DNA of 64,000 nt, taken from positions 17,794,001 to 17,858,000 of the forward strand of contig NC_086377.1 in NCBI RefSeq assembly GCF_036588685.1, given 5' to 3'. The DNA is from Mytilus trossulus. Taxonomy: Eukaryota. Shown piece by piece: positions 6,039 to 59,077 of the stretch (positions are counted from its first letter, which is position 1; each line of letters starts with the position of its first letter). Below the pieces are notes generated by a model. That model was not told where the DNA came from and did no database searches. It saw nothing but the letters and a program-made list of their open reading frames with translations. The translations under genes were made by a program, and so were the position numbers.

Positions 6039-9000
6039 TTATATTAGATTAAACGTTGCTGATATCGCCTCCCCAGACTTTCTATCATGAGCCTTAATGT
6101 CAATTTCCGTATTTCCAAGGACAAATTCTACGTCTACCCAGCGTTGATCCTCGCAGGTGTCAGAAAAAGTGATTGTCGGTGTACATAGCAAAGCACATGT
6201 ATCATCGTCGACATAACTTGGTGTTGTCTCTTCAGATACATATACCATGATGTCCATTTTGTCTTGATGTTCGAAAGGTGTAAAGAATGATTTATTAACT
6301 ACCATTCCTGCTTTAACGCTTTCGTCTTTTCCGACGATAAGAGAAAAAATGTTGTCACACCTTTTCTCCTTTTCCATAACTACATAATGTTTTTTATCAT
6401 ATTTTCTGTCATCCCAAGGAACATTAGTTTTCACACCATAACTGCATCGCATTATCCGTGACTGGATATATTCTGGCTTATGGCCAAACAAAACAGCCCC
6501 TCTAAGCACGGAAAGACTGGCTTCATCTGGAATTATTATTCTTTTCTCCAGGAATTCTTTATTAACTGCGTCTTTTATAAACTGGCAATCTGAGAATCCT
6601 CCAACCAATAACAAATGTGTCACGCCCTTTAATGTCTTTTTTCCTAAAATCTCTTTCATGAGAGTAAGCACATTGTTAATTGTAGGTGTATATAGTTTCT
6701 TGAAAAACTCAAGGCTCATACGAATCTTATCATGTGTTAGTGTTATTTCCCCTGAATATGTAGAGGATTTAAGCAGAGACTTTAAATCTTTTTTGTGAAC
6801 TTCCTGGCACATTGTGTTTAGTGCAACAAACGGTATTGTTATAGTAACTTTAGGTTTATTAATTTCAAGTGTTTTCTTGACAATCTCGAATTCTCTTACT
6901 AAGTCTAAATATGCAAGGGGGCTATCTTCTTTCAATGATTTCATTATTTTCTCTCCAAAGATCTGTTCACAAAGCTTGAAGAACCTTCTATCAACCGATG
7001 TACCCCCACAATCATTTCCCATAGCTCTGTGTATTTCTTTCAAGCGACCATTTGCTACTTTCGGATGAACTGTAATGTCTGCAGTACCGCCTAGATGACA
7101 GACAAAATACACACTGTGGTTGATGATTGTAATATAACAAAATAAACAGAACTTAATAGATTCGTCTTTTACATATACCATAATGCATCTTGCATTTTGA
7201 TTTTTGATCTGAGTAAATTGAAATATCTGCCTATGATATTTGCAGACATGCGTCTTCTTTTCCACATTTTCAGATATTAACCCGCTTCAATTTTCATTAG
7301 CAACACAGTAACATTTCGTTTTCAACTCAACTTGATCCATATTAAAATGTTCTTAAATACTCGAAATTAAAAATTTAAAACTCAATATTATGAAATTAAT
7401 TAATAGACATTTTTTGTTATTACAATTAGAATGTTTTTTTTTTAATTCGATTTAAATATGGATGTATCACCTACCTCCAAGGTCAACGACCATGTACTCT
7501 GTCCCCTCCGAAGTCATTGCGAAACCTGGTACCGAACCATTCAATCTTTCAGTGGGTAAATATTGACAAAAAATAGATGCTGTTTCTGGTTCAAGTGCAA
7601 CGATCAAATTCTTTGTTTGTATGCCAGCCTATAATAAACAGAGAATTCTTTCAAAGAATATCCGTTTTACAAAATATATAAGTATGTGTTATAGCACTCT
7701 TTCAATGTAAAGTCACATTTCAGCAATTTACTTGCCTAATGTCATGAGCCTTTTAGTATTTTATTTGTTATTTTGGCATTATATTATAAATGTAGCCAAA
7801 GCGGGGTCAATGAAGTTTGTTTTTAATGTTCGAATCCCTTTTTTATGTTACGATACACATACGACTACAAAACCTCATGAAAGGTCATATTTCAACTCTA
7901 TTAGCACATTGTTTTTACATTTTGAGACCCACAAAATGTAAATGCTAAATATCAGGCAAATGTCCGGGTTAGCCTTTTCCCGCATTTATTTTGTTTTTTA
8001 CAAAATATAAATGTGTGTTTCAACTTTGCATAGTGTATGCTTCAGCGAAACCAATAAGTCATATTGCTAAAATAAATATGTTTCCGTATTGTAACTAAGT
8101 GTAAAACAAATGACACCTTCATACTACTAACCGCTTCAGCACACGATCTCATAAATCTTTTAGCTTTATCAGTCCAGATTGCAGGAACAGTAAGGACCCA
8201 TTTAACTTCATCTTGCTGGACTATATTTCCTCGTGTTTTCAAAAGATCTAGTAAATGTGTTACTAAGAAGTTGATTGATAATTTAAATACATCGAAAGCT
8301 GGCATTCGTTTTGTCCCAGTAATGTCTTCTAGCATCATGCTACTTGTGATGTTCTATTTCATGAAAATAAAAATAACAAAACTAATACATATATTTGCAC
8401 ATCTATATAACGAGTGTAAATAAACTCATCATAGATACCAGGACTAAATTTAGTATATACGTCAGACGCGTGTAATAACAGTAATAAACAGTGATAGACA
8501 GTTCTGTGCGAATATGCTTATTTTTCTACTTTGTTGATTAAGATTCGTTTTACTAATTCCAAAATGGAAGATTCTGGTAGTTTGTGGAATGGGGAGGGTT
8601 GTCAGCTTTCTATAAAAAGTTAAATCACGCAAATACTGAACTCCGAGGAAAATTCAAAACGGAGAGTCCCTAATTAAATTAGAAAACACATCAAACGAAT
8701 GGACACCAACTAACATATTCCTGTCTTAGTACAAATGTAGAAAATTATGAATTAAACCTGACTTAATAGCGCTAAACCTCTCCCTTGTATGACAGTTGCT
8801 TCAAATTCCATTATATTTACAACGATGCGTGAAAACACCAGGGCTCTTACTCACACCCTAATAACCTCTAGAAAAAATGTGTTTATTCTTATGGTAAGTT
8901 ATTGTTGGTAGTCGGCTGGTAACTGCTCTTTGGTAAGGCTGTTGTGTCTTTGTCTATTTCCATTCTTAATTTTATTCAATTATCTATATCAATATAATTG

Positions 9001-9311: not shown

Positions 9312-10583
9312 TATTTATTTTTTTTTCATCTGAAATACGCAATATCAATGATCTTTATTATTATAGGACATGACATATACAGTAGGAATAATTCTTTTTT
9401 AGCCATAATACCACATTATTTCAAACTACAATTCAGAATCACATTAAAATTGAAGAGTAACTATATTCAGCATTTTGCTTATAGGATGTTGATCATAAAG
9501 GTTCCTTCTGGTGAGTGAAGTCATTTTCATCTGACTTTTATAGTTCGGTCTTATGTTGTACTGTTAAACCACTGCCACCGTCTAGGGAAGGATTGGGTCC
9601 TCGCTAACATGTTTACCCTTCTAAATTATGAATGTGCATGCCTGTCCTAAGTCAGGAGCCTGTAATTCAGTGGTTGTCTTTTGTTGCTGTGTTACAAATT
9701 TGTTTTTCGTTCACGTTTTCGTACATTAATTAGACCTTTATTTTTTAGTTGTAATTGTTTTATATTTGTCATGTCAAGGCCTTTTATAGCTGACTATGCA
9801 GTATGGACTTTGCTCGTTGTTGATGGCTATACGGTGCACATAAGCTGTTAATTTCTGTATCATTTGGTCTATTTTGAAGAGTTGTCTCCCTGTCAATCAT
9901 AACACATCTTTTTTTTTTTATTCTTACTCAAATACTGATTAAAATGTCTGGTGAACAAAAGGACAAGAATATCGCCTGGATGTTTTGTCCTTTGCAGAAT
10001 TGTATGTAAACAACAACAAATGATAAGTGATAGGTGATCTGTATATCTTTACTTTTTCTGTTTGTTTTGTTCAATAAGGAAAGCACAATGATTATACACA
10101 TGTGTTAAATATACATTAAACAGAAATATTGAGCACAATATAACAGAGAATTTATAATACGATTTTATAAGGACGTTATAAGGTTTTGGTTTCACTGATG
10201 ACGATGGATATGTTCTACTAATCAGAGCCAAACTCATATGTATGTTATTATGGAATAATTTTCCTTCAGTTCCACCAGAGACTCATATGACGTAGTTTTT
10301 CACCTGGTTAATTTTGGTTAGATAGGTTTTAGTTTTAGTACTAAATGTTTTACTCTACGTGTTGTTTTATTAGTGACCATGGTATTATCGTTTTTAAGAA
10401 TCCCTTTTTCTTGCGCTGGTTGGTGTATTTTCCCGCGGAATCTAATGCACACGGATAATTAAAGAATCATCTGAAATACTATATGATTTTCAATCAAGAA
10501 AGATAACGATATGTCAGGCTTTACTATTTTTATAATGTTAGTGCCTTCGTTATAATGTGTCGACTACATAAATTCAATATTGT

Positions 10584-11580: not shown

Positions 11581-14500
11581 AATATATAGATAGATTATGT
11601 TGTTGTTATTTTATGTACTAACAAGAGTGCAGTGATTCGAGAAGAAAAAGTGCTACGCTATCTGTACGTGTAGGACTCTTGCAACAATTCTTTCTAAAAT
11701 CTGATTACCGTCTTGTAAATGAATGAAATATTCGCCACTGGGCGATAAACCCCAAGTTTTTGGTGGAGAACGTGTTGCTAAGTCTTTAGTTTTCTATGTT
11801 GTTTCTTGTGTACTGTTGTTTGTCTGTTTGTCTTTTTTTAATTTTTAGTCATGGTTTGTCAGTTTATTTTCGATTAATGATTTTGACTGTTCTTCTTGTA
11901 TCTTTTGCCCCACTTTTAAACCATACAACAAGGAATAAGTCAATCAAATTGTGATGGCAAGACTCAATGTTTATTTTTTTTTAGTTATATTTTTCTATTT
12001 TAGTCTTCGTTTTTTACTAGCTTAGTAGTTTTCCTCAGTTAATTATTTGGGTTTTTTTTATTGAACGAAATTGCCTTACAAACTTAAGAGTAATTTATTA
12101 TAAAACAAAATTCACTCGTCTTTATCAATATTTTTTTTTTATATTAGAAATTGCCTGTACCAAGTCAGGAATATGACACCTGTCATCCATTCGGATGATA
12201 TGTTGAGTTTTTGATTTTACCACTTGATTAAGGACTTACCGTTTTCGTTTTTTTTTGTGATTTTACTTTTGACTGTAATTAACAAATCGACTAAGGTTTT
12301 AACTCGGGCAACGTTGACCTGAAATTGATGTTTTCATTTTGGTCATAAAATCCCTCAAGTGTGTAGGTATTTGAGCGTCCTTTACTTCATAGTTTTAGAT
12401 AATCATGAACGTTCCTGGTGAAAGTTCAATGTTATAATATTTCTACCGTTATGTTTTTTTCACATTTCTCTTGAAATTTTTCCATTTGTTCTTTCTATCG
12501 TTAAAAACGGCATCAAATTTACCTGTGGTTGCTATAAGACCCTTTAATGTACAGTTGTTGTTATGTACTCTCTACGAGGGCCGTATTTCTCGATTAGATA
12601 GAGGGGAGCTTCGCAGTGAAATATGTCATTTGTACCACAGACAGCTTAGAGTGCATATCAGCAAGTTAAGGAGATAAACAATCTATCACGAATAGAAAAA
12701 GTGAAGTGTTGCTAATGTATTGCGTTTCACATCTTTCACTATTATTGTGAGATTTTTTTTGTTAAGATTACCATGCCTTAGTGCTTTCCAGTTGTTCTTA
12801 TATTTCTTATTAAAAATGTGATATGAAATTATCAAAAAATAAAAATATTGAATGTGAATTATTAGTTATCGTCTTTTGTGGCTTTCTTTTAACTTTATCT
12901 GATCTTTGGGGATATTTGTTCAATTGGCAATAAGCAGACCACATCTCCTTATTTTTATATAGTGGCAATAGATCTGTATAAGTTACATGAACACGCATAT
13001 AGGCTATCCAGTGGAAAGGAGTACATCCGAACCGTTACTTCGAATATTTCAATCCTACTAGTATATGGGTTGATTTAAAATACATTTACAATTAAGCAAT
13101 GGATTTGGTTTTTAAATTTGATAGAATGGACTTGTTTGCGACTGTCATACAAGAGGATTCGCGCTATAAAAGCAAGGTTCAATCCACCATTTTCTACATT
13201 TATAAACGCCCGTACCAAGACAGGAATATGACAGTTGTTGTCTATTCGTTTGCTATGTTTTATCATTTGATTTTGCTATTTGATTAGGTACTTTCCGTTT
13301 TGAATTTTACTCGGAGTTCGGTATTTTCGTGATTTTACACCAGTGTATAGCGTATTTTTAAAGTTTATAGGATCTCATTCATTTTCATACTATTTACCTG
13401 TGTTTACTTGTAATATTCTTCTTTTTCTTCCTGGTAAAATTAGCGGAAATGAAATGAATATTTTGGCGCAAATGAAATATTATTTTCACGCAAATGAAAT
13501 GACTCTTGACGAAAAGGCAAAGCACAGATTCCTACATTATGAGATTTGTAGATCAAATAGTAAAGTTTTATGTTGGAGTTCACAGATTTTTATGTTAATA
13601 ATGGGATTATTAGGGATTATGCTGTAACGACTATAAACAAATAAACTAATGTAAATCAAGGTGAAAATCAAGAAAAAAGTTCCTATTAAATATCGTCATA
13701 AAAGCGGGAGATTTGGCTAGTCACAAAACAAGGTACAACCCACCATTGTTTCTTAAAATTTCCTGTACCAAGTCCGAAAAATAGCAATTGTTATCCTATA
13801 GTTGAAGTTCGTTCCTGTGTGTGTTGCATTGTCGCTTGGTGGTTTTTTCCCTTTAGTGTTTCTGTTGTTTCGTTGTTTTCCTCTTATATTCGATGTGTTT
13901 TCCTTAGTTTTAGTTTGTAACCCGGATTTGTTTCCACTTCATCAATTTATGACTTTCGAATAGCGGTATACTACAGTAACTGTAGTCTTAATTCCTATCA
14001 TTATTTTAAAAGTTATGATTATTGTAACAATGCTTGCAGTTGGAAATTAACAATGTATCCTTAAATACAAACATAGAATAGTAAGTGGAGAAGAGAATAC
14101 AATTGATTTTTCAGTCTTCTAGAAATGTCTTTGAATGGCTGTCTGTAAAAAATGTATAATTTAAGCTATATTTCCATGAAACTAAAACAAGTCTTTACTA
14201 TTTTGTGTTGAAATAAGCATAAACAATTGTATTGCCCAGTTTTACACATTTCTAGAAGTATTGCCCAGCCCGGGCGGGTAATACTTTGCAACCCTGTGTA
14301 CACTCGGTGAACTATTCTAGATGTTGGGTCGATATCATAATACAAACATAATCAGAGTTTAGCATGGTGCCCATTTCGCTTAACTAGTATACATTATTGT
14401 TTAGGGACAAGCTGAAGCCCGCCTATGGTTCACATAGACAAAAACAAGTGTATGTGTTTCAAGTGCGGGATTTTCTCGCTACATTGAAGACCTATTGGTG

Positions 14501-17700: not shown

Positions 17701-20700
17701 CTTGCAAACATATTTAATTTGGCATCACATTGCCGTATTATTGCTTTAAACTAAGAAAATGTGCAGACAGTTCTTAAATTCACAGAAAATAAGAATTACT
17801 ATATACAGAATATTTGACATTCATAAATAAATTAAAACTAAAATTATTGTGTAGATAGTGTACTTTCCAAATATCTGCTATGTTATTTAGTTTCTGAATC
17901 TTCGTCGATAATTGAAAACCAAATTATGAGCTTCAAACATCAGAATCTGAACATTTTTTTAATTTCATTCGCTTACCGCTTCAGCACAAGACCTCATAAA
18001 CTTCTTTGCTCGATCTGTCCAAATTGCAGGAACTGTGAGGACCCATTGAACCTCGTTATGGCGGACTACATTACCACGTGTTTTCAAAATATCTAACAAA
18101 TGGTTCACTAAATATTGGATTGAAAATTTAAACACATCAAAAGCTGGCAATCGTTTTGTACCAGTTATATCATCTAACATCATGCCACTTGTGATATTCT
18201 AAAAAGAGAACAAAAAGCATGTTATTTGATTTTGCTTCGCATCACGTTGCGGAGCTATTAGTTGCAGAAGACATACACGCCATCTTGAAATAATTACTTA
18301 TCGCATAATATGTTCTGATTGGTTATTAAAAAAGAAGGTGTGGTATCATTGCCAATGAGACAACTCTCCACAAGAGACTCAAATGACATAGGAATTAACA
18401 ACTATAGGTCATCATACGGTTACATTATTATGTGTTCGCTACGTTTGTTTTTGCTGTTTATCGGATAGGAATCCATTATTTTTAACACACGTGTTGCAAT
18501 TAAAATGTTGCACGCTAGCATCTTCTTTTCTATTGATTGTTTTATAACAAACGGTTTCAACAGCTATTGTTGAAAACCTAATCAAGTCCATGCAAATTTA
18601 TTTATTTTAATTTTAGAAAGAACACACTAGTATATGTAAATAGTAAATGTAGAAAGATTGAAAGAGAAATATTTCCTGCTTAATTTTCAAATGAGTATAC
18701 ATGTATTTAATAAAAGAGGACAACGAACCGGTAATTTTATACTGCTTTTTTATGGTTCCGTTATTGATGGAAATTCATTTTATAGTGGTCTTTTAAAAAC
18801 CTTTTAATCTTGAATTGGAGCAGTAAACATCATAAAAAATAATCATGATGAAAATGAGAATGGATATATTACCAAGAGACAACAACCTGACCAAAGGACA
18901 GAAAGTTGCCGAAAGCCACCAATGACCCTTTAACGCAGTGAGAAAATCCCGCACCCGTAGGTGGGCCTCAAATGGTCCCTTAATAAAAAAAAAAACTGTA
19001 CTAGTTTAGTGAAAAATGGACGTCATACCAACTCCAAAACTTAAATACGAACTGAAATGAAAAAAACCCCAAAAACATACAAGACTAAGTTAGTTGACTC
19101 TACCTGTGACTTTGGACAGGCGTATAAATGCGGCCGGTTCAATCAAGTTTTGTGAGATCTTAACCTTCCCCCTATACATCTAGCCTACTATGTAGAATAT
19201 AGAAACACATAGCAATACTCACAGTAAAACTCAGTTCAAAAGAAGTCCTAGTCCGAATTCAGAAAAGGTAACAAAAGAAATTTATCAAAATGACAATGAA
19301 ACATAAATTAACAAAGGACTACTATTAGTTACTGACATATAACAAAGAAGATGTGGTGTCATTGTCAATGAGATAACTCTCCACAAAAGACCAAAACATT
19401 AATCATGATAATGGAATATGTAGACAGCTTTCTCACAAGCAAACAGCCCCGAACTGTAAAAATGTAGGGACATGCCAACTCCAGACCTCAATTAAACTGA
19501 TTGAAAGATCATGTCTTCATCATATGAATATCAAGCACATGTACTATTCTTGAATATGTTTTGACAGAAAGAATAGTCGGAGTATTTTTAATTGCTTCTT
19601 GCTGAAGCTTTGACGCATAAATCAATGCTACGATGTATTAAAATCCAATTACGACCGAAAGAAAAGTCGAAAATAGACAAGGAACTAGAGGAGGATACTA
19701 ACGAATTCCGTAATATGTGAAAATTTGAACTAATAATTTCAGATCATCTAAATGGTTTAGATATGTGTTTGTATGAATCTAAAACTTGTTTTGTAATCTA
19801 ATTATTGTGCACATGTGATTTATTTCCTTAATGTATAACGATTTAATGTATAACAGGAAATCAGTTTGTATTAACAAAAAGTTCTTATCTTTAATACTTT
19901 GTGTCCTTGTTGCAATTATAATCAAACTATTTTGCAATGACCACCTTGATACACCGCCTTGTTACATCAAATGTATGTTTCATTATAATACGTTATTCTG
20001 ATTGGCTACACTGCAATCTTGCGTTATTCCTTAATCAACTTCAATACACATTAAAATTTACCATTCATGATGACAAGAGGTCCCACAATAAAGTGCACAG
20101 GTGTATCAAATAAAAACTTGATAAAAATCGTGTATTCATGATCCTAGCTTAAATATGTAATTATAAGCATTGAATGCTTCTTTTTGTAACTTCATACGGT
20201 AAAAGCGAATTGACCTATAGCGCAAATTTTAGAATGAAGCGCTTCCGCGATTCATAAAACTGAAATGTACATCGGTCAACGCTTTTACACCCAAATGAAG
20301 TTACAAAAAGCAGCATTTAATTCTTAAATAGATTTGGAGGATGAAACTGGATAGGGTTTTAAGTTCGGTAGCAAAAATTACAACCATATCAAGACTTCAA
20401 CATGTAAATGAATATGAATATGTATAAAAAAAATAGTTCCAGGTTAACGAGACAGACTCACTGGGTCAGATATTTTAGACGATATTTAACTAGGAAACAG
20501 TCAGTAGGATCACTTGCCAACTACAAGGACAATTTCAACTGAATCTTGGCCGACCATGCAGTCCACTATTCTTAAAAATAAAAGCCGCGCGGCGTGGTTT
20601 TTTTGCAGAGAAGAAGCAAATAACAATTTAAAAATCTATGTTAGTTGACTCTACCTGTGATCGTAGTTAACTGACTCGAAGAAAAGGGATACAACAATTG

Positions 20701-28807: not shown

Positions 28808-31800
28808 ACTGTTACTGTTACTGGTAATTTCCTCATCTCTCAGGAGCACTCCCAAAGGGATACATAGATTTTAAAGTATAGTCTAAGAAAGGATCTAAGA
28901 AAGGATATATATATATACAACTTACGTTAAACTGTACAGTTTCCCACCACCCTTGGCTATTGCGTATACTAAAAGCATTGTTCATTTGGCATACTTTAAG
29001 TCTATTTACACACTGTCTATAATATAACTTCTTATGTTTCATCTTTTAGGAGATAAGTTCTCCTCACATGTAGTCCATAACATAATGTCCTTGTTATTTG
29101 TTCAATATCAGTATAGTTGTCCTTTTTTAAGCGAATAGATGTTCTCACACTTTCACATGTAGAGTCAAGAATAAGTTTCATTAGTTGTCTATTATCAAGA
29201 TCTTCGTATGTTCCTTTTTTAATGTTTTCTAGATAGCATTTTAGAGTGTTCAAGTGATTTCTTCGTACATCCTCTAATCTATCACATATCAATAAAAAAT
29301 GTTCTAAATCTTCTGTATCATTTTGGCACATTTTACATTTTGCTGTTTCTTTATTATTACTAAACTTGGCTTTATTAACTTGTAAAGTATAAGTTCCTGT
29401 TAACAGTCTGGCTTTTACTTCAGCTTTTTTCACCTCAATATGACAGTTTGGTACAGATTTCCATATCTGATGAGCATTTTCTATAGCATATGACTGAATA
29501 TTTAGTAGTTTCAAGGTTGACTTCTGTTGTTTCTCTTCTTGCCACTTAACATCCCAGTAGTGTATTATATGTTTCTTTACTGTTTTTTTCCATTTCAGAG
29601 TATCTAATTCATTCTCTAACAATGTTTCAATTTCTGGTAAACCATATTTCTCTAATCTCTGAATAACCTTAATAATGTAACTTTTACCATTGCGTTTTGC
29701 CATACTTAATTGTCTTTCTAAAATTTTGAATTCTAAAGTTTCTTTGTTGTGAAGGAGATTTCCTAGAAATGTTAATATCAATCGGTCTACTACAACCTCG
29801 ACTGGCTTCACTCCTAGAAGTGAGTAAGTGGCAATATTTGCTGTCCTGTCTGGAAGACCCTGAATTTGTCTACATACTTTCAACTGTAGTCGCTCTAATT
29901 TCAGGATATCTGACTCAGTGAAATTCATTACTTCTATTCCATATAATGCTCGTGGTATGACATATGTTTTCCATATTTTATAGGCTACTATTGGAGACAT
30001 GCCTTTCCTTGCATGTAGTCCAGGTCCAAGTAAAGCATACAGAGTTTTCCTTGCCAGTTTTAGTCGATCTTCAGTGTTCAGCTTGTTTTTACTATTTCGT
30101 ATTAGTCCTAGATATTTTGTTTCACTCTTTTGGGTTATCTCATCTTTTCCAAGGTATACCGAGAAGTTACTTTGACATTTAGTGATCGGTACCAAATCTG
30201 ACTTGTCTGGGTTTATAGTTACTATGTCTCTTTTTGTACAGTTTTCAACAATGTCTAATAATGCTTGTACTTCATGTTGGTTTTCTGCCAATACAGCTAT
30301 GTCGTCAGCACACGTTGGGGCCATTTCTTTTATGTTTCCTATTTCAGCTCCAATTTCAGATCTTTCTAATGCTTTCAGTATATTGTTATTATATCTCTTA
30401 TATAACATTGTTGACAATTTTGCTCCTTGTCTTACATCTTGTGTTACTTTCACTTCACCTGAGAGACTATTATTCCATTTCACTTGTATAGACATATTTC
30501 TATATAAATTACGTAAAAGTATCCAAATTCCACCACAAATTCCGTCATGATATAAGTTATTAAAAAGTATCTCATGATTGAGTTTATCAAAGGCCTTTTG
30601 GGCGTCAAGGGTAAGTAGAAAAAGTTCTCTCAAAAGTTCCTTATAACAGTCTGCTGTTTGTGTAACAATAAACGCTGTATTTAGTGATGATGCCTTTTCT
30701 GTGAAACCACGTTGTTATTTACTTTGTTTTGGAAGTAGAGTTGGTTCAATTCTGTCTTTTAATAGACTTTCAAGTACAGTTGAAAAAGTATTAGTAACTG
30801 TTATACCCCTGTAATTTTCTGAGTACATCTTGTCTTTGCCGGTTTTTGATACTGGAGTAACTGTTCCAGATTTAATTTTTTCTGGCACATCTAGATTGTC
30901 AAAGATTAAATTGATGATAATTACTATAAATGGTATAATCTCTTCTGGTCCATACTTGAAATGCTCTGAGCTAATTCCATTAACGTCTGGTGACTTTCCT
31001 GTTTTCATCTTAGAGATTGATGACTGGACCTCATCTACAGTTGCTCGTTCTATTGGTTGTAGATTTTCTTTTTCTATAGATTCAATGATTTCATTTTTGA
31101 TCTTTACGAGGTTAAGTTTTTCTGCACCAGTCTCATTCTCAATGTCGTTATTAAAAAGTTCTGAGAAATAGTCCCTCCATCCATCTGAAATTTCCTCTAG
31201 GTTATCTAAGGCGTTTTTATTGAATACCATAATGTCAGGATTTGAAGTATCAGATCTTCGTTGGTTTTGAATTAATTTATGAAATAGTTTGTTATCACTT
31301 TGGCTTGATTTCATAATTTTTTCTGTAAGTGCTATTCTTTGCGAAGCATGTGCCCTACGTTATGCACTCCTTAATCGTCTTTTTGCAGTTTGCATTTCAT
31401 TTTTGAGTTCGTAATTTTGCGTATCTTGCTTCCACATGTAGAAGGCTTCTTTAGATTTTCGAGAAGCATTGTTTATATCTTGGTTCCAAATACTTTTGCC
31501 TTTTGTTGTAACAACTGTTTGTTTTCTATACTTTGGGATAGAAAGGTTTCCTGCATGATGTAGGATATTCTCTAAATTTTCGATTGCTTCTGATGTTGTT
31601 TGAATTTCAGTTAGATCTATTTCTGTCAGTTTAGTTGTGATGGCTTCTTGGTATATTTGTTTATCACATTTTCTCCAATCAGGACGTTTAACTATTTTTG
31701 TTATTTGCCGTTTTTTTCTATTCAATGTTCCTACAACTTTCGCTATGACAATTGTGTGGTCAGAAACATTTAGAGGCTCCATGTCTGATATAGATACTGT

Positions 31801-34800
31801 GTACCTTATATTGTTCTCAGCTCTCTTGTGAAGAAAATAATATATCTGTGATTTAGATATTTTATTATGGTTATAGAATGTTGGTTTAATTGGATAGTTG
31901 TGTACCATTTCCAATTCGTTGTTGGTTAAAAATTGTTTTAAAATCATATCTCTTGATCTATTGTCTCTATGTAATGACGCATTTAAATCTCCACAAAGCA
32001 TTATTTGATATTTTTCCTGATATTTTTCAATTATCTCTTCCAGCTGAGCTAGCATATCTTTATATTTCTCATCACAATTTTCATTTCCTGATGGCATGTA
32101 AACATTTATCAAGCATATTGGGTGCTCTTTCGTATTCACTGTTATGCGTTCATTTCCATCTGGCATATATTTCACTGCATTGTCAATGTCTTTTCTCCAG
32201 AACGTAGCCACCCCCCCCCCCCCCCATAACCTCTTCCACATATAATATCTGAAGTGTCGATATAGTCATCAACTGATTTTGCCTCTACTTCATGCATATT
32301 ACTGACAGCATTCAGGTAATATTTCTCAGATGAATATAACCAATGTTCTTGAATACAAAAAAAATCACATCTCTTTAGTACTTGTTTCAAATAAAGTTCA
32401 TTTGACTTAGCATTTTGTATATTTAATGTACCTATAGTGATTTCCTTTTTTGCGGATGATTCGAGGTTGAGGCTCGGCCGTGCTCTAAAAAAGAAGTAGA
32501 ATCTCTTTGTTCTTGATTTCCTGAGTTTGAATTATTTTCAGTTACTTTTACACTTTGTATGTAAGTGTTTTGCTCACTTTCACTTGAGTCTGAATGTTTC
32601 TCTTTGGGTCTATCACAGTTTGATTTCAACTTGTGTGTATTGTTTTTAAGAAGTTCTCTTGGATATTTTCCTATCGGAATAACTCGTGGTTGTTGCGTTT
32701 TAACTTTCTCTAAATTTGGCAGTGTCATACTTTCTGGTGCTTTCACCTTACTTTGATTTAAAAATGTTGGTATCTGGTGGAAATCTCGTTTATTTTGCTG
32801 ATGATATTTTTGGTGGTCATTTTGTCGCACATTTCCAAAATGATTTACCATAGGCATATTTGCTAGCTGTATACTACTATGTTGATTGTTCATTCTATAA
32901 GAATTCACTTGGTGCATGAGATTTTGTCCTTGAATATTACGTATTTCTTGTGGTTGTTGATATGGCCCTGGAAATCTCTGTGTCAATATTGGTATTTTGA
33001 TTTCAATTGATATTGACCTTGCATGGGTATATGTGATTGTTGAAATGGAAATACCTTTGTTAATATAGGTCCCAACTGATTTTGTCCTGCAGCAGGCATT
33101 TTTGGCTGATTCATCATATAATTTTGGTTCTTGTTTTGAGTATTTTCTACATTTTGTACATATCTTTGTTGATTTATTAGTGGTTCTGTCTTGTGCTCAG
33201 TTATCAACGATTCATGATTTTGTAAGCTTGGCCGATAATTTTTCACTAATTTTTCATTGTTATTTTTACATGCACATTTACTCTCATGTTGTTCAAAGTT
33301 CGGTCTATTATCATGAAGTTTCATCATGTTTATTTCAGTTTTTAGATCTCTGATCTCCAGTTCATGCTCTAGTTTTATCTCATGAATGTCTAATTTATGC
33401 TGGAATTCCATAGTCATTGTTGTAAACTTGGCTGATATTGATTCTTCTAGCATTTGCAATTTAGTTTTTATAGTTTTTATAGCTTTTGTAAGGCAGAATT
33501 TTGCCATTGATGAATTTCATCTTTTTCTTTGCCTGTTGTTTGTTGTTTCCATTTACAGTGAATGAGGCTGATTGTATTTTCATAGTCCCTGTTTTGCTCC
33601 TCTAGCATGATAATTCTAGCTCTGCTAGCTGTGAGTTGTTGTTCTAATTCTATAGTTTCTTTCTTTTTCCATTTTTTGGCCTCGGTTTAAGGTTTATCGG
33701 GCTATGAGAAGGAGGGTCGCTTACGTGAGTGGGTAAGTTTTCATTTAGTTTATCTGGCCCCACTGTTTTCACTTTAGTTTCCTCTTCATTTATATCATTT
33801 ACCAGTTGTTCTTGATTGTCTCGTTGATTATAGGATACATCTACTTCTGTTTTTGATTTTGATTCATTTTCTTGTTGTTGATTGCTATTGTTTATAGCTA
33901 TGTGCACATTTTCTTCTTCTTCTTCTTCAATATTGAATGTTACATTTAGAGGTGTGTTTGTTCCCTTTCGGTCGTTCTCTAGTTCAAACTGTATAAAACT
34001 CTCATGTATAAAGTTATCTTCTAAGTTTTCACACAATGGGCAAGTATATGTCAGGTTGGTGTCTTCAGACTGTTTTTCAAATTCTTCTTCAGTGAGATTA
34101 CTGCATTCTTTATGTAACCACATACAACATTTTGTACATTCAACAGAGTTCTCATTGTTGACATCATAAAAACATGCTGGACATTTGATATGATTAATTT
34201 GTGGGTCAATATTTTCTTGTTCCCTTTGTGTTTTATTAGTTTCAATTTCAGGCGTAGGAATGTTCTTTCTTCTACCTATTATTTGCAACTTGTTTGGATT
34301 TTCACATTTTAAATCATTATCTTCTGTATTATGGTTCTTACTACTATATTCAGTCACTGCCTGATTTGAAAGTACAAGCTCGCATATTTCTATTATCTTT
34401 TCATTGATTTGTTTCACATTTGCCATATCTATAGTCTTTATGATTTCTCGGAGGTCTTCACAAATAAATTGCTGGTATTGACGCCCATTGATATCCATTC
34501 TACTAGTAGTATTGAACATGTTGATTCTATACCATTGTCTACATTTAATATTCATATTTTCTTTCGGTCTAATTGAAAACGATTCCTCTACTATTGCTTT
34601 TCCAATTGTCTTATTGCTAGTTTTACTAGATTTGACAGTTTTATTGTATGTTTTATTCTGATGTTCATCATACTATTTGATTATAGCCCTGTTATATACT
34701 TCATATGCAGCTGGTGTAAACGACATCACCAAAGTACCTCTTTTAAGTTCGATTTCAACATCAAAATCTCTTTTCGCAGCATCTATCTTTTTAAGTAATG

Positions 34801-35280: not shown

Positions 35281-36431
35281 CTTCTATACCGCTTTTTTTT
35301 AATCTTAAACCAAAAGAAACGAACAAACAATACCAAATCAATTCGTACGTGCCATATGATTAATTGCCGATAATATCTCAGATGATATCGGATATGTTCC
35401 ATATGTCACAACAACAAGCCTGTTCCCGTTTCTAGAACTGGACCTACCCAATTAAACTATTTCCCGGGGTTGTAGTAATATGAGCAACACAACGAGTGCC
35501 ACACGTTGGAAAGGTTCTGCTTACTCTTCTGGAGCACTTGAGATCACCCTCAGGTTATGGTTTTGTTTGTGTTGATTAATCTTTAGTTTTCTATGTTGCG
35601 TCTTGTGAATAATCATTTGTCTGTCTGGTTTTTTCAGTCTCTTTTAGCCATGGCGTTGCCAGTTGATTTCGATTTATGAGTTTGAATGTCCCTCTGGTAT
35701 TTCACGACCCTCTTTTATACACTCGGCTTTAACTTTGAAGGTAATGAACTCTGGTTTAACCTTGAAGTGTATAAACTTTGCTTTAACCGTAAAGATTATG
35801 AACTTTATAAATTTGCTTTAACCTTGTAATGTATTTTCTTTAACAACGAAAGTAATAAACCCTGCTTAACCTTGATGGTTATGCTTATAATCTTTTGATT
35901 TTTTTTTAATCAACTTTTGAGCATAATTCTTATTGAAATACTATGTGTATTTCGAAGATATACATTATATGCGCTCAGATTAATATATAAAAAGCTATAA
36001 GAAAGTTAAGGCATTGTAAGGGGATGGGTACGACGTTTCAACCTAGGAAAAAAAGATGGAAAACGGCATTTATTTTTGAAATATAAGGACATCACAAACT
36101 GGTCAAAACATTTACTAAATTTTATCATCGGTATAAAGACATCATTCGTAAATATAGCTCAACATGCAGACTTCTTATACGTTCAGGTATTTCACATCCA
36201 ATTTTTTATGGAAATATTCTTTATAAAGCACAAAGGTGTCAGTATTCACCTCATAAACTTACAAAACCTTTGAATAGACTTATTAAGAAGGGATATAATT
36301 ACGATACTGTTGCCAAGTCATTAAAGATTGCATATTTTGGCGTTAATATTAAGTCACTGATAAGGTCTTTGCGTCGGAACTAAACACATTTATTCTAAAA
36401 TCAGTTGTTGGCATGACACGGGTTATGTTCT

Positions 36432-36504
36432 TCTCATATATGTTATGATGGTATGATACTAAACCCCTTACGGGAAGGATTGTGCCTGATGTTCATATGA
36501 TGAA
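36432..36504 (+). promoter_or_regulatory. SECIS element (form II) in PLE 3' UTR
   Basis: ATGAT (36445), 11-nt helix II GGTATGATACT, AAA (36461), CCC/GGG mini-stem, AGGATTGTGCC, TGAT (36487); helix I TTCTCATA/TATGATGAA. Confidence 0.8.
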
Positions 36505-36615
36505 ATCATAATCTTTCAGTCAGTTTAATTGAAGTCTGGAGCTGGCATGTCAGTTTACTGCTAGTAGTCTATTGTTATTTATGCATTATTGTCATTTTGT
36601 TTACCTTTTTACATT

Positions 36616-36706
36616 GGTTAGAGGTATAGGAGGAGGGTTGAGATCTCACAAACATGTTTAACCCCACCGCATTTTTGCGCCTGTCCCAAGTCAGGAGCCT
36701 CTGGCC
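36616..36706 (+). ncRNA. Twister-ribozyme-like fold, permuted type P5, lacking a canonical P1
   Basis: P5 GGTTAGAGGT/GCCTCTGGCC; GAGGG; T^AACCCCACC; P3 GCA-TTTT-TGC; P4/L4 CCTG-TCCCAAGT-CAGG. Predicted scissile bond 36659/36660. Confidence 0.7.
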
Positions 36707-37592
36707 TTTGTTAGTCTTGTATTATTTAAATTTTAGTTTCTTGTGTACAATTTGGAAATTAGTATGGCGTTCATTATCACTGAACTAGTATATATTTGTT
36801 TAGGGGCCAGCTGAAGGACGCCTCCGGGTGCGGGAATTTCTCGCTACATTGAAGACCTGTTGGTGACCTTCTGCTGTTGTTTTTTTATTTGGTCGGGTTG
36901 TTGTCTCTTTGACAAATTCCCCATTTCCTTTCTCAATTTTACATAATTATAACAAGACATCATGAACATGTACATATCTGACATGTCTGATTTGTCTTTA
37001 GAAATGGAAACAAGAAATACATAGCATCTCAGAGTTCAACATTTCAACTTGTTGCTTATGATATGATCTTTTTAATTTTAATGCCAAATTAGATTTTTTA
37101 TCCAATTTCATGGTCCATTGAACATGGAAAATGATAGTGCCAGTGGGGCATCCGTGTACTTAGGATACATTCTTGTTTTGTGTTGTTTTGTGTTGTTTTG
37201 TTGCTGCCCCATAAACAATTTTCATTTCTCTACAATATATACCACGCTGTGGTAATTAAAACTGATAAAATAAATCATAACTTCAACATTTTTAATAAAG
37301 ATTATGTATAAAACAATCAATGGAAGAATTAATTCGAATAACATAAATACAATATACAAATAACAGGTAATTACAATATACAATTAACAGGTAACAATAT
37401 TATACAATATACAATTTATTAACAGGTAACAATATACAGTTTGTGGGAATGTTGTTATTTATCACCATAGTAACAGTATGGACAGATCAGCCATATTCTT
37501 TTCTTTCAAAATATAAGAAAACTATTATTTTACTAAACGAACTGTCAGAAAATAACAGCTACTTCATCAACCATGAATTTAACTTGCTTTAA

Positions 37593-42099: not shown

Positions 42100-45000
42100 T
42101 CATATTGATATTTTTTTCCGTTTCAATTTAGGTTTAGCATTTTCATCATCCTCTTTAATTTGTCTCTTTTTTCTGCGTGACCTAATTGAACTTATTTCAT
42201 CAGGACAAGAATCACTTTTGATATGTTGTTCTTTTTCTTCTTTTTTCTCTTCTTCTGTTGTAGTCGTCTTTATTATTTTCCTCCTCTTTTCTTGACTCCC
42301 TTCATTTTCTTTCAATTTCTTTTTCTCTTCTTCTGTCTTCTTTATTGTTTTCTTCCTCTTTTCTTGACTCTCTTTATTTTCTTTCAATTTGTTTTTCTCT
42401 TCTGTCCTTTCATGCATTTCTCTGTGTCTTTTAATTTGGTCACTCCTTCTAAATTCCTTCCCACAAATTTCACATTCATAAACCGTCCCAGTCCCGTGTT
42501 GGAATTTAACATGTCTCTTTAAATAATACTGTAAACTAAACTGTAAACCACATTCCTTACACGTGTATGTCTTATCTTTGGTGTGTGTTTTCCTGTGTAC
42601 ATTTAATACACAAGAATGAGCGAACGTTTTATTACAAATCTCACACTTATATGGGCGAGCCCCTGTGTGTATGACCTTGTGATTCTGCAGGGATCTTTGA
42701 TTGACAAACGTTTTATGACAAATATCACACTCTTCTATTCCTTCACCTGTATGAATGTTTTCATGATAATTTAAATAACTTTCCGTTACAAATCGTTTTC
42801 CACAGACCTGACACTCAAAATCCTTGGCACTTTCGTCATGACTTTTAGCATGTGTTTTGATATAATTTTTTCGATAATATTTTTGACATATATCACACTC
42901 AACCAGTTCCGATTTCTGTTTCTGTCTGGTTGTCAATCCATTACTTTTGTTGAGCGGAGAAAGATTATGTTTTTCATTGATATGAACCTTCAGATATCTG
43001 TTCTGTGTATAAACCTTATGACAGAAATGACATTGGAATGTCCCTGGAGCATGGGATCTTTCATGTGCCTTTACCGATTTCTCTGTTTTATAACTTTGAC
43101 CACAAATCTTACAAGAGAAAAGCCTATCCTTATTGTGTGACTGGATGTGATTATTTAAATGATCTTTCCTGATGAATCCTTTCCCACAAATATCACAGCT
43201 GAAGTTAGTCTCACCATTGTGTTTCTGTAGGTGGATAGCCAACTTATATTTCTGCATAAATGTAATACCACAGATGTGGCAGACATGTGGACGGTCACCT
43301 AAAAGTAGAAAATACATATATATATGTAAACCTGTGTACTCATATGAGACAGACATGTGGACGGTCACCTAAAAATAGAAAATACACATATATATGTAAA
43401 CCTGTGTACTCATATGAGACAGACATGTGGACGGTCACCTAAAAGTAGAAAATACACATATATATGTAAACCTGTGTACTCATATGAGACAGACATGTGG
43501 ATGGTCACCTAAAAATAGAAAACACACATATATATGTAAACCTGTGTACTCATATGAGACAGACATGTGGACAGACACCTAAAAGTAGAAAATACACATA
43601 TATATTTAAACCTGTGTACTCATATGAGACAGACATGTGGACGGTCACCTAAAAATAGAAAACACACATATATATGTAAACATGTGTACTCATATGAGAC
43701 AGACATGTGGACAGTCACCTAAAAGTAGAAAATACACATATATATGTAAACCTGTGTACTCATATGAGACAGACATGTGGACGGTCACCTAAAAATAGAA
43801 AACACACATATATATGTAAACCTGTGTACTCATATGAGACAGACATGTGGACAGACACCTAAAAATAGAAAACACACATATATATGTAAACCTGTGTACT
43901 TAGATGAGACAGACATGTGGACGGTCACCTAAAAAAAGAAAATACACATATACATATGTAAACCTGTGTACTCAGATGTGGCAGACATGTGGACACTCAC
44001 CTAAAAATAGAAAATACACATATATATATATATGTAAACCTGTGTACTCATATGTGGCAGACATGTGGACGGTCACCTAAAAATAGAAAATACACATATA
44101 TATATGTAAACCTATGTGGACAGTCACCTAAAAATAGAAAACACACATATATATATGTAAACCTGTGTACTCATATGAGACAGACATGTGGACGGTCACC
44201 TAAAAATAAAAATACAAATATATATGTAAACCTGTGTCCTCAGATGTGACAGACATGTAGACAGTCATCTAAAAATAGAAAATACACATACATATGAAAA
44301 CCTGTGTACTCAATACTCAGATGAGACAGACATGTGGACGGTAACCTAAAAATAGAAAATACACATATATATCTACCTGTGTACTCAGATGAGACAGACA
44401 TGTAGATGGTCACCTAAAAATAGAAAATACACATATAAACATATGTTTGCCTGTGTACACAGTTGTGACAAAACAAATGGATGGTCACTTAAAATAAGAA
44501 AATACACATTATATATATGTTTGCATGTATATACAGATGTTACAAATGTGTGGACAGTATGCACGTGTACACAAATGTTAAAAACATGTAGACAGCCGTA
44601 AAAACAGTCCTTTAATTACACACTGATTACCACATAAATGACAAAAAGCATTGATCAGAATTAAAATAAGATATAAGTCCATAATATGCTTCGTTAGAGA
44701 TAAAACTCTTGGATTTTTTTTTAATTTGGGGGGAATACTTATAATAATACATGTATCTCTGGATATATCTACATTTATTTTTCTCCATCTGACGAGTTAA
44801 GCCTTCTCCAACTGATTTGTATAGTTTGTTCTTATGTTGTACTGTTATACCACTGTCCCAGGTTAGGGGAGGGTTAGGATCCCGCTAACATGTTTTACCC
44901 CGCCACAGTATTTATGTATGTGCATGTCCCAAGTCAGGAGCCTGTAAATCAGTGGTTGAAGTTTGTTTATGTTTTACATATTTGTTTTTCATTCATTTTT

Positions 45001-48000
45001 TTATATAAATAAGGCTGTTTGTTTTCTCGTTGGAAATGTTTTACATTGTCTTATCCAGGCCTTTTATAGCTGACTATGCGGTATGGGCTTTGCTCATTGT
45101 TGAAGGCCGTACGGTGACCCATAGTTGTTAATGTCAGTGTCATTTTGGTCTCTTGTGGAGAGTTGTCTCATTGGCAATCATACCACACCTTTTTTTTATA
45201 TTTGATAAAGAACACGATTTCTATTTCTCAAATCTAAAATATAAATACAAATCCTACCTGTATGAACTTTCTCATGTTCTGCCAGACTACACTTTGTAAC
45301 AAAGTCTTTGGGGCATGCTCCACACTTATATGGTCTTTCTCCAGTGTGTATTCTGACATGGTTCTGCACACATAAGAGATAATCGAATGTCTTCTTACAC
45401 ACCGTACACTTATACAGTCTGTAAACCTTCCTTGACCTTTTACCTACATATTTATTTAAATGTGATATTTTTTCGTATGTATAAAGGCTAGACTCATCAT
45501 CAGTTGGTTCTAATTTAATTTCTTCTCCTTTTTCCAGTTCTTGGCCACTCTGAGCCTCTCTGCTTTTATCATTGTCTCTGTCTATTTCTTGTCCATTTCT
45601 GACTGTATTCCTACTAAGAATCAGTTCTGAGGTACCAGACTGTTCTAAGTAATCTACAATTTCCTTTTTTATTTCATCTGGATCAGTTAAAGCATCAGAT
45701 GACATTTCAGCAGTTTTGGAAGATTGTTTACTCAGTGTAAATGGTTCATTTAGGACAGCTTTTGCTGATGTCTTTGTCAAATTTTCGTTACTACATTGTA
45801 AAATGTTTTGATTTCTTGGTTGGAATGATTTATTTGTCAAGATCTGTAAAGTGTTTTCATTTGTAGTTTGGTTTAATGTATTTGTCAAGCATATTGTTGC
45901 AGGATTTGAACTAGAATATGCATTTGTTGTGGTCGTAGAATTTTCTAAACTATCTTGGTTCAAAGTATTAAACATTTTTTCACTAAAAGTAGACTTTTTA
46001 TAGGTATCTTGCTTTTTTGATTGAATAACTGGCCCTGTTACCATGGCACCTGATTTTGTTTCTATAGTGAACTGTCCTGTTACTATAGACACTAGTTCTT
46101 TTGCCATAGCAACTGGTTCTCTTTTTAAAGTAATTGGCTCTGTTTTTGCAGTATCTCCTTCTGTTTCCACAGTGACTTTTTTAATAACTTCTGTTTCCAC
46201 AGTGTTTTGTTCCATAACCTCTGTTTTCATGTTATCTATAACAGTTACCAAAGAATTGAAATTCAAATCTAGCAGATCTGGGTCATTTTTATGTTTGACT
46301 TCCAAGTCATGGATTTTCTCTGCTTCATTGAGAAGCATTTTACAAGTTTTAAGGATTTGATCCTACAAATTAAAAAAAACAACATTATCAGTATAATTTT
46401 TATATCATGGCTACTTTGCAATATAAAACATTATCAGTGTAATTTTTATATCATGGCTTGTGTACAATTTGGAAATTAGTATGGCGTTCATTATCACTGA
46501 ACTAGTATATATTTGTTTAGGGGCCAGCTGAAGGACGCCTCTGGGTGCGGGAATTTCTCGCTACATTGAAGACCTGTTGGTGACCTTCTGCTGTTGTTTT
46601 TTATTTTGGTCGGGTTGTTGTCTCTTTGACACATTCTCCATTTCCATTCTCAATTTTATTCTTTGCAATATAAAACATTATCAGTGTAATTTTTATATCA
46701 TGGCTTCTTTGCAATATAAAACATTATCAGTGTAATCTTTATATCATGGCTTCTTTGCAATTTAAAACATTATCAGTGTAATCTTTATATCATAGCTTCT
46801 TTGCAATAAAAAACATAATCAGTGTAATCTTTATGTCATGGCTTCTTTGCAATATAAAACATTATCGCTATTTTGTGCATTTTTCCTTTGATTTTTTTTT
46901 GTGATAATTTTCATATCATGCTTCTCGCTTGAGATGAAAAAATTATCAATAGAAACTAAGGAGGCACGTGGCGTTACTAAGGAAATTGACATGAAATTGA
47001 CAACGTCGTCCTAGGTAAAATAGCGATAAACAGATTATCATTGGTCATCTCAACTCGGTTGCTTTTCTCACTTTCGCTGTACCAGCTCAAGCTAGAAAAC
47101 CAATCTCGTTGAAATGACCAACGATAATCTATAATTATCAGTGTAATCTTTATATCATGGCTTCTTTGCAATATAAAACATTACCAGTGTAATCTTTATA
47201 TCATGGCTTCTTTGCAATATAAAACATTATCAGTGTAATCTTTATATCATGGCTTCTTTGCAATATAAAACATTATCAGTGTAATCTTTATATCATGGCT
47301 TCTTTGCAATATAAAACATTATCAGTGTAATCTTTATACCATGGCTTCTTTGCAATATAAAACATTATCAGTGTAATCTTTATATCATGGCTTCTTTGCA
47401 ATATAAAACATTATCAGTGTAATCTTTATATCATGGCTTCTTTGCAATATAAAAAATTATCAGTGTAATTTTTATATCACAGCTTCTTTGCAATATAAAA
47501 CATTACCAGTGTAATCTTTATATCATGGCTTCTTTGCAATATAAAATATTATCACTGTTATTTTTATATCATGGCTTCTTTGCAATATAAAACATTATCA
47601 GTGTAATCTTTATATCATGGCTTCTTTGCAATATAAAACATCATCAGTGTTATTTTTTATATCATGGCTTCTTGAAAAGATTAAACAATTATTGACTTGA
47701 ATCAGTTAATGCTAGTCGACATTATTTCTAACCAAATTTTCAATAATTCTTCCAATAATCTCAATTCAATATTCACTGTCAAGTTTCGATTCTATTTGCC
47801 ATAGATAGGGAATTGTGCAATATACATGATATAAATACAAATCATTGTGTAAGTTCAATTAAAACAATGATCAGAACTGTGTTCTCTCTCTCTCTTATTG
47901 GTAAGGTTTATGTTTAACTGTGTTCTCTCTCTCTTATTTGTTAGGTTTATGTTTAACTGTGTTCTCTCTCTCTTATTGGTTAGGTTTGTGTTTAACTGTG

Positions 48001-58695: not shown

Positions 58696-59077
58696 ATACA
58701 ATTTTTTTTCTTTCTTCTAGATTTGTTATTTACCATAATTGTAATCACGGCTGTGCAAAGCAAAATTATTATTTATCTGTACCAAAAAAAGAACCTAACG
58801 TTTTCCAGTCTTATTGAAATATATTAGTTACAGTCAATCTTGAACTAAAAGAGGGACGAAAGATACCAAAGGGACAGTCAAACTCATAAATCTAAAACAA
58901 ACTGACAACGCCATGGCTAAAAATGAAAAAAGACAAACAGAAAAACAATAGTACACATGACACAACATAGAAAACTAAAAAATAAACAACACGAACCCCA
59001 CCAAAAACTAGGGGTGATCTCAGGTGCTTCGGAAGGGTAAGCAGATCCTGCTCCTTTGAACTAAAGTAGTCATTGAA

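What the first reader, a model, noticed from the sequence alone, without database searches (positions are those of the whole stretch)
36636..36661. Twister P1 is replaced by two tandem palindromes in each family: possible dimer-dependent ribozyme
Seen: the strands that should form P1 do not pair (UU opposite UU). The linker instead holds two self-complementary blocks whose sequence changes while palindromy persists: R2 TGAGATCTCA (36639-36648) + AAACATGTTT (36650-36659); R1 GGATCC + AACATGTT (44877-44894); R5 TAGCGCTA plus a degenerate AAnnAGGTT; the ~13715 family TGGCTAGTCA. Loopless palindromes fold poorly as hairpins but pair well between two molecules. Known: minimal PLE hammerheads act as dimers from tandem repeats, and twister P1 is dispensable in engineered mini-twisters. 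Inference: cleavage may require pairing of two copies, such as tandem pseudo-LTRs.
Basis: partly seen in the sequence, partly recalled or inferred. Interest (0 to 1): 0.75.

Follow-up and report, generated by a model that had tools for sequence, protein, structure and literature searches.

The report
Twister ribozyme built to pair up
A jumping gene of shellfish carries a twister-type RNA motif whose first helix is replaced by two mirror-image sequences that change together from family to family, so it likely cuts itself well only when two copies pair, which would be a new way of switching this ribozyme class on.

Summary
The motif (36616-36706) is a type-P5 twister core in the 3' end of a 5'-truncated Naiad Penelope-like element.

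P1 is absent: 0 of 17 family representatives have a first P1 pair, whereas 8 cleanly parsed phage type-P5 controls have a stable P1 hairpin. The slot instead holds two palindromes. 12 of 17 representatives beat shuffles, and the innermost pairs, which no hairpin can form, change on both sides. Five published Naiad ends show the same design with other sequences. Pairing between two RNA copies is therefore likely selected (about 0.8).

That cleavage needs the pairing is inferred only (about 0.55). P1 is known to be dispensable, the predicted monomer misfolding is no worse than in canonical controls, no RNA ends pile up at the site, and no close same-family tandem was found.

Ten other Naiad ends carry an unrelated, uncatalogued fold that also has two palindromes. 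I found no dimer-built twister and no Naiad twister in print.

The parts
36088..36941 (+). 5'-truncated copy of a Naiad-type Penelope-like retroelement, with a deletion of about 85 nt near 36603 relative to L027
   Evidence: BLAST against L027, L055, L007, L041; loose ends at 36599 and 36603
36088..36383 (+). C-terminal end of the reverse transcriptase ORF
   Evidence: P0001 is 92% identical to P0002 and 74% to P0007; P0007 holds an RT core and the DKA motif that Craig et al. give as diagnostic of Naiads
36435..36499 (+). SECIS-like element in the 3' UTR
   Evidence: Rfam SECIS_1, 32.8 bits, E 0.013, below the gathering score of 35; also in L027 and L017
36616..36625 (+). twister P5, 5' strand (pairs with 36697-36706; the open stem that makes it type P5)
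   Evidence: fold; layout compared with Rfam twister-P1 and Twister-P5 models
36629..36637 (+). P2 strand (36629-36632; A36631 is G in most copies) and GAGGG with the T1 strand (36635-36637)
36639..36648 (+). palindrome 1, in the slot of P1
36649..36649 (+). spacer base between the palindromes; C or T in the family
   Evidence: common variant in RNA reads and DNA contigs
36650..36659 (+). palindrome 2 (duplex 36651-36658); 36659 is the base before the predicted cut
36659..36661 (+). predicted cleavage site U^AA (cut between 36659 and 36660; untested)
   Evidence: position by analogy with the Rfam twister models
36662..36679 (+). second P2 strand (36662-36665), T2 strand (36666-36667), P3 hairpin (36668-36679)
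36680..36706 (+). P4 (36680-36683 with 36692-36695), L4 with the T1 and T2 partners (36684-36691), P5 3' strand (36697-36706)
44858..44947 (+). R1, copy of another family; GGATCC and AACATGTT; first A of the cleavage site changed
13692..13782 (+). decayed copy of another family; palindrome 1 with one wobble, palindrome 2 broken
8711..8795 (-). R5, decayed copy; TAGCGCTA kept, palindrome 2 broken
19107..19180 (-). decayed copy of the R2 family
9582..9664 (+). decayed copy of the R1 family; palindrome 2 kept
13149..13233 (+). decayed copy of the R5 family

Best explanation
This is a twister-type RNA motif in the tail of a Naiad retroelement whose first helix is replaced by two self-complementary blocks, and these blocks likely pair with the same blocks of a second copy to build the missing helix, so that efficient self-cutting would need two copies. 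Shown: the twister core layout, the missing P1, the conserved double palindrome with covarying centres, and the Naiad context. Inferred: palindrome 1 (predicted duplex -9 to -20 kcal/mol in intact families) would nucleate a family-specific dimer. Palindrome 2 (-4 to -7) ends at the base before the cut and would stand in for P1. Holding both would also free the T1 guanines from pairing with the linker. The partner would most plausibly be the second pseudo-LTR of the same transcript or of a tandem insertion. A lone tail would then stay largely uncut and usable as a template, which fits genomic copies keeping the 280 nt downstream of the site.
For: 0 of 17 representatives have a first P1 pair and their linker hairpins are 0 to -1.5 kcal/mol. 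Of 9 phage type-P5 twisters passing Rfam's cut-off, the 8 parsed cleanly have P1 hairpins of -10.4 to -17.1 and no two-duplex excess (p 0.06-1.0). The zero-loop centre pair of palindrome 2 is AU in 7, UA in 3 and unpaired in 3 of 13. In 21 sequences, 4 of 5 palindrome-1 pairs change on both sides, 0 of 500 shuffles reach the covariation score, and all slid controls are lower. Central tetramers GATC, GCGC, CATG and CGCG occur in the loci; CTAG and TGCA, and a CG centre for palindrome 2, occur in published Naiad ends read by eye. The pair at the end of palindrome 1 departs as U-G in 5 rows and as a non-pair in 1, as expected for RNA. Blocking both palindromes lowers the gap to the active-compatible fold in 12 of 12 copies. 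T1 covaries: GC 11, UA 8, UG 1. Naiad RT sequence lies upstream in 11 of 62 loci and in the window. Hammerheads of other Penelope-like elements have palindromic stem III loops and act as dimers.
Against: No cleavage was measured. Twisters without P1 cut at almost wild-type rate according to one review, although another paper calls this inefficient, and P1 defects had no effect in a large screen of type-P1 twisters. The monomer gap of 2.1-10.4 kcal/mol is not above that of two canonical controls (5.6, 5.8) or three related type-P1 copies (7.1-12.7), so misfolding of the monomer is not shown. 5 of 17 representatives fail the shuffle test, and only 8 of 17 pass a strict test in which the dyad is set by outer pairs alone; three more have a GCGC-centred palindrome one register off. 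No RNA ends pile up at the site in two RNA runs. No same-family direct tandem was found within 1.5 kb in 62 loci. Forming both duplexes between two folded cores would interlock their loops, so one core must open first (my reasoning, not computed). The families are related, so the counts are not independent events.
Confidence: 0.55

Rival explanations
1. The palindromes do join two RNA copies, but for another purpose (holding two templates or the two ends of a transcript together for the element's protein, before or after cutting); the twister cuts as a monomer without P1.
For: P1 is dispensable. Ten other Naiad ends have two palindromes around an unrelated fold, so dimer formation may be a need of the element rather than of the twister. 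After cutting, the loop is open and both duplexes could form freely. A Penelope-like protein is predicted to be a dimer, and its hammerhead was not needed for insertion in vitro.
Against: Palindrome 2 ends exactly at the base before the cut, and palindrome 1 starts one base after the T1 strand in the representatives, which ties them to the active site. A constitutively fast cutter would remove the 280-nt tail that the copies keep.
Confidence: 0.22
2. The motif works as a monomer in which the two blocks form two small hairpins, perhaps held by the element's protein.
For: R1 forms a 5-bp hairpin of -4.4 kcal/mol. The hammerhead of an anole Penelope-like element cut only with protein present.
Against: Linker hairpins are 0 to -1.5 kcal/mol in 17 of 17 representatives. 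Hairpins do not need self-complementary loops, yet the innermost pairs covary.
Confidence: 0.08
3. The palindromes are DNA dyad sites for a dimeric element-encoded protein, co-evolving with it in each family.
For: Dyad sites also keep self-complementary centres; the protein of a related element is predicted to be dimeric.
Against: The sites sit inside an RNA fold at fixed distances from T1 and the cut. U-G departures outnumber non-pairs 5 to 1 at the end pair. Six different central tetramers would need repeated changes of protein specificity.
Confidence: 0.08
4. The fold no longer cuts at all and serves only as a structural or protein-binding RNA dimer.
For: Rfam score 16.8 against a cut-off of 37.6; no RNA ends at the site; P2 is only 2-3 pairs in register in several families.
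Against: The cleavage-site AA and the GAGG are kept in most families, T1 covaries, and T2 is 2 of 2 in 11 of 17 representatives under a fixed register. Part of the core (P4, L4, and part of the TTNAA and P2 bases) was fixed by the search pattern and is no evidence.
Confidence: 0.07

Closest known systems
Type-P5 twister ribozyme (Rfam RF02684)
   Same: Order of parts (P2 strand, GAGGG, P1 slot of about 20 nt, N^AA, P2, T2, P4 with UCCCAAG loop), both pseudoknots, ends in P5.
   Different: P1 hairpin absent and replaced by two palindromes; L4 ends AAGU with T2 AC/GU or GC/GU; carries P3; scores below Rfam's cut-off; lies in an animal retroelement.
Minimal and short-stem-III hammerheads in the pseudo-LTRs of Penelope-like elements (Cervera and de la Pena 2014, PMC4209133; Lunse et al., seen only as cited in PMC6765202)
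   Same: Same kind of element and position; a helix at the active site is too weak in one copy and is built from palindromes of two copies.
   Different: Different catalytic class; two palindromes of 8-12 nt rather than one of 2-4 nt; sequence differs by family, so pairing would be family-specific; dimer activity untested here.
Schistosoma T-variant twisters of Perere-3 (PMC8501958)
   Same: Natural twisters with a defective P1 in a retrotransposon.
   Different: Those are at the 5' end of a LINE, with P1 formed by the target site; the passages seen mention no dimer or palindrome (0 occurrences).
Naiad Penelope-like elements (Craig et al. 2021, PMC8557442)
   Same: C-terminal RT, DKA motif in a 74%-identical relative, SECIS-like element after the stop codon, 5' truncation.
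   Different: The paper reports no canonical hammerhead and never mentions twister; the N-terminal endonuclease could not be seen here.

Membership tests
Twister ribozyme, type P5 | Stem P1 next to the cleavage site | tested here: not met
   0 of 17 representatives have a first P1 pair
Twister ribozyme, type P5 | Stems P2 and P4 | tested here: met
   P2 88.5% of cells paired in 13 sequences, but only 2-3 pairs in register in several other families; P4 was fixed by the search pattern
Twister ribozyme, type P5 | Pseudoknot T1 | tested here: met
   96.8% paired; one pair GC 11, UA 8, UG 1
Twister ribozyme, type P5 | Pseudoknot T2 | tested here: met
   2 of 2 pairs in 11 of 17 representatives under a fixed register, 1 of 2 in the other 6, of which 5 may be register shifts; CC/GG in two clam consensus ends read by eye
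Twister ribozyme, type P5 | Conserved N^AA and GAGG bases of L1 | tested here: met
   present in R2 and near-invariant in alignment A1; partly selected by the search pattern
Twister ribozyme, type P5 | Termini in stem P5 | tested here: met
   layout matches Twister-P5; the internal hairpin lies where the twister-P1 model has its common stem
Twister ribozyme, type P5 | Rfam gathering score | tested here: not met
   16.8 bits against 37.6
Twister ribozyme, type P5 | Site-specific self-cleavage | not testable with these tools
   no end pile-up in two RNA runs, which is weak either way
Naiad Penelope-like element | RT at the C-terminus with DKA motif | tested here: met
   ORF ends in RT sequence; DKA seen in relative P0007
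Naiad Penelope-like element | N-terminal GIY-YIG endonuclease and CxC motif | not tested
   the copy and the loci are 5'-truncated or too short
Naiad Penelope-like element | Pseudo-LTR or partial tandem arrangement | tested here: inconclusive
   no same-family direct tandem within 1.5 kb in 62 loci; full elements are 3.4-4.4 kb
Dimer-dependent ribozyme (as Penelope hammerheads) | Conserved palindrome replacing an active-site helix | tested here: met
Dimer-dependent ribozyme (as Penelope hammerheads) | Activity higher as dimer than as monomer | not testable with these tools
   needs a cleavage assay

The most novel reading that the evidence does not exclude
Naiad retroelements use a family-specific, two-helix RNA dimer interface as a general switch for their ribozymes. 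It is grafted onto a twister in mussels and clams, giving a natural dimer-gated twister, and onto an uncatalogued pseudoknotted fold in oysters, hemichordates and a hydrozoan that would be a new self-cleaving class.
Probability: 0.3. Interest if true: 0.9.

Novelty: new variant of a known kind. Interest (0 to 1): 0.74.

Why it matters
Naiads were reported to lack the usual hammerhead, and the role of ribozymes in Penelope-like elements is open. A twister that has reached the same dimer logic as the hammerheads would show that these elements select for copy-number-gated cutting rather than for one catalytic class, and it gives a clean test (heterodimer rescue). It would also be a natural, sequence-programmable two-RNA switch for a ribozyme widely used in RNA engineering, and it explains why current twister models miss a very abundant repeat.

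Tried and rejected
No genome is held for the window. A window-wide Rfam scan found no twister; only the 141-nt scan gave a weak Twister-P5 hit. The viral collection held no match to the bivalve-type pattern.

I first labelled the motif type P3 and corrected this to P5; script headings do not depend on the label. The idea that the monomer is specially self-inhibited was not supported by controls. A strict automatic linker extraction kept only 27 of 72 cores, so relaxed anchors were used afterwards. One search used a mis-indexed structure and is void. In alignment A1 the odd-palindrome families are one column off in palindrome 2, and the 8-mer families are off-dyad in palindrome 1, so only T1 and palindrome 1 were counted on it.

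Reads showed no ends at the site; the runs hold many decayed copies on both strands, so this decides little. The twister screen's supplement could not be read and may list bivalve candidates; its text says it focused on type P1. Lunse et al. was not held. Earlier-finding look-ups returned nothing.

Full report
Observation. The sequence at 36636-36661 is as described. TGAGATCTCA (36639-36648) and AAACATGTTT (36650-36659) are perfect palindromes, and the blocks named in R1, R5 and near 13715 are present, the last with one wobble. The bases that should start P1 are U opposite U. Taken alone this is weak: adjacent perfect 8-mer palindromes occur 20 times in the window, and of 9 motif copies found with a sequence model only R2 keeps both blocks perfect at 8 bases or more.

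Context. R2 lies in an 854-nt repeat copy (36088-36941) matching four longer loci at 88-97%. It begins in the end of an ORF that is 92% identical to an RT-bearing protein and 74% to one with the DKA motif, followed by a SECIS-like element. These are features of Naiad Penelope-like elements as given in the passages of PMC8557442 that I read, which report no canonical hammerhead and have 0 occurrences of 'twister'. Naiad RT sequence lies upstream of the motif on the same strand in 11 of 62 loci and in the window. The host is probably a mussel, inferred from the motif shared with the published Mytilus Naiad end. R2 itself is a decayed copy, with a P2 change at 36631 and a deletion of about 85 nt upstream.

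The core. The order of parts is that of a type-P5 twister. T1 is 96.8% paired and one pair alternates GC, UA and UG. T2 is complete in 11 of 17 representatives under a fixed register. P4, most of L4 and some bases at the cleavage site were fixed by my search pattern and are no evidence. Rfam does not accept the motif (16.8 against 37.6 bits). P1, a defining stem, is missing, so I file it as a twister-like variant rather than a plain member.

The linker across families. A pattern scan gave 60 metagenome loci and 2 genome loci. Cores were grouped by their downstream flank, independently of the linker. I set aside a group of 10 type-P1-like copies, 3 bacterial-looking type-P1 copies and the copies truncated inside the linker, and chose 17 representatives by hand. 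None has a first P1 pair and their linker hairpins are 0 to -1.5 kcal/mol. As controls, 13 phage matches were fetched: 9 pass the Twister-P5 cut-off and 4 are type P1. The 8 type-P5 ones that parsed cleanly have P1 hairpins of -10.4 to -17.1 kcal/mol in a slot of like length, and no excess of double self-pairing. In the Naiad set, 12 of 17 exceed shuffles at p<0.05; the 5 failures each have mismatches in one or both blocks. An unpicked set gave 15 of 28 at -15 kcal/mol or better, including 6 of 8 with intact cores, with a non-significant trend.

Centres. A hairpin needs no self-complementary loop; a duplex of two copies does. The innermost pair of palindrome 2 is AU 7, UA 3, unpaired 3 of 13, and that of palindrome 1 is AU 11, CG 1, unpaired 1. 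In 21 sequences, 4 of 5 palindrome-1 pairs change on both sides, and the score beats 500 of 500 shuffles and all slid controls. Kinship inflates that test, and the 8-mer families are off-dyad in that alignment. A strict test passes 8 of 17, with four different central tetramers. I read by eye the last 400-450 nt of 27 of the 54 Naiad consensus sequences in the supplement of PMC8557442 (names inferred from record order). Five carry the twister-like motif, and all five have both palindromes, with new centres CTAG and TGCA in the first and a CG centre or a one-base odd centre in the second. Among the 40 variant rows shown in the read lay (89 more were hidden), the only one inside the linker is the spacer base 36649. 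Selection for pairing between two copies is thus likely, about 0.8.

Mechanism. Predicted duplexes are -9 to -20 kcal/mol for palindrome 1 and -4 to -7 for palindrome 2 in intact families, and cross-family duplexes are mostly much weaker. In a dimer, palindrome 2 ends at the base before the cut and would replace P1, while palindrome 1 follows the T1 strand; the two helices would lie side by side with one core at each end (inference). In most monomer folds the T1 guanines pair with the linker or with the cleavage site, and blocking both palindromes lowers the gap to the active-compatible fold in 12 of 12 copies. However, canonical controls show gaps as large (5.6 and 5.8 kcal/mol), and the program ignores pseudoknots, so an off-state monomer is not shown. 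Forming both helices before cleavage would interlock the loops, which needs a core to open or a chaperone; one helix at a time, or a dimer after cutting, avoids this. Copies keep 280 nt beyond the predicted cut, which suits a normally uncut tail. An anole Penelope-like element likewise used unprocessed RNA in vitro and showed no reads ending at its hammerhead site (passages of PMC11167929).

Against dependence. P1 is dispensable in mini-twisters (passages of PMC5408937), 'inefficient' without it in PMC8501958, and tolerant of defects in PMC11662667. No RNA ends pile up at the site in two runs, read at about 18% and 6%. No same-family direct tandem lies within 1.5 kb in 62 loci; four loci hold two cores, of different families or in opposite orientation. 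I put the dependence of efficient cleavage on pairing at about 0.55.

A wider pattern. Ten of the 27 ends read carry a different fold: a stem enclosing a 10-mer palindrome, a conserved GCAGG...TGCTYAC stretch and a 6-mer palindrome, with an apparent pseudoknot (by eye, not aligned). Truncated or decayed copies occur in the window, where Rfam found nothing. The other 12 ends showed neither motif in the part seen; several had hammerhead-like cores. The two-palindrome design on two unrelated folds supports dimer formation as a need of the element, which favours both the best reading and the first rival.

Novelty. Nine literature searches returned lists, covering twister with Penelope, dimer, palindrome, bivalve, mussel, homodimer, and Naiad with ribozyme. 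None showed a Naiad twister or a natural dimer-built twister. I read passages only, of ten papers (PMC8557442, PMC11662667, PMC5408937, PMC7229834, PMC11167929, PMC4209133, PMC10085705, PMC6765202, PMC8501958, and bioRxiv 10.64898/2026.07.22.740005, which has 0 occurrences of 'twister'). Subscription papers and the supplement of PMC11662667 were not seen and may list these motifs. Three earlier unchecked notes of this scan report a twister in Naiad tails, two of them with an abnormal P1; the lines shown do not mention palindromes. Verdict: a new variant of a known kind, convergent with the dimer hammerheads of Penelope-like elements; interest 0.74.

Noticed in passing
window 17452-17576, 35490-35636, 58920-59052 (-), 11715-11839, 61305-61429; L040 near 301 (-): Copies of a second Naiad tail motif. 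In ten published Naiad ends (oysters, ark clam, pearl oyster, hemichordates, a hydrozoan) it has two covarying palindromes and an apparent pseudoknot; Rfam has no match. It sits where other Naiads have ribozyme-like folds and may be an undescribed self-cleaving class.
   Followed up: partly
window 36435-36499; L027 469-533 (-), L017 614-678 (-): SECIS-like element, just under Rfam's cut-off, in Naiad families of a probable mussel; selenoprotein Naiads were reported only in clams and spiders. In-frame UGA codons were not checked.
   Followed up: partly
L001, L003, L005, L010, L012, L019, L021, L033, L043, L048: A type-P1 twister-like repeat family with the same P4 and L4 sequence and a displaced P1 (L043: Rfam twister-P1, E 8.6e-7, below cut-off); no Naiad RT hit in the flanks.
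   Followed up: partly
L014, L024, L031, L038, L039, L040, L044, L060: Eight copies appear to be 5'-truncated inside the 21-nt linker, at the middle of palindrome 1 or the start of palindrome 2 (by eye); the search pattern biases this.
   Followed up: no
supplement of PMC8557442: Several Naiad ends (two corals and at least three other animals) show hammerhead-like cores with unusual order or insertions.
   Followed up: no
window 29032-34672 (-): Broken LINE-like element with PHD finger, AP endonuclease and RT domains.
   Followed up: no
window 42100-46362 (-), 43131-44560, 46539-50200: C2H2 zinc-finger ORFs among tandem arrays of 70, 46 and about 40 nt.
   Followed up: no
window 6039-7286 (-) and 14713-15894 (-): Two related ORFs of about 400 codons, one with an Hsp70-family hit.
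   Followed up: no
window 54396-54755 and 57713-58070: Long inverted repeat (about 360 nt, 95%) around 3 kb, like a DNA transposon.
   Followed up: no
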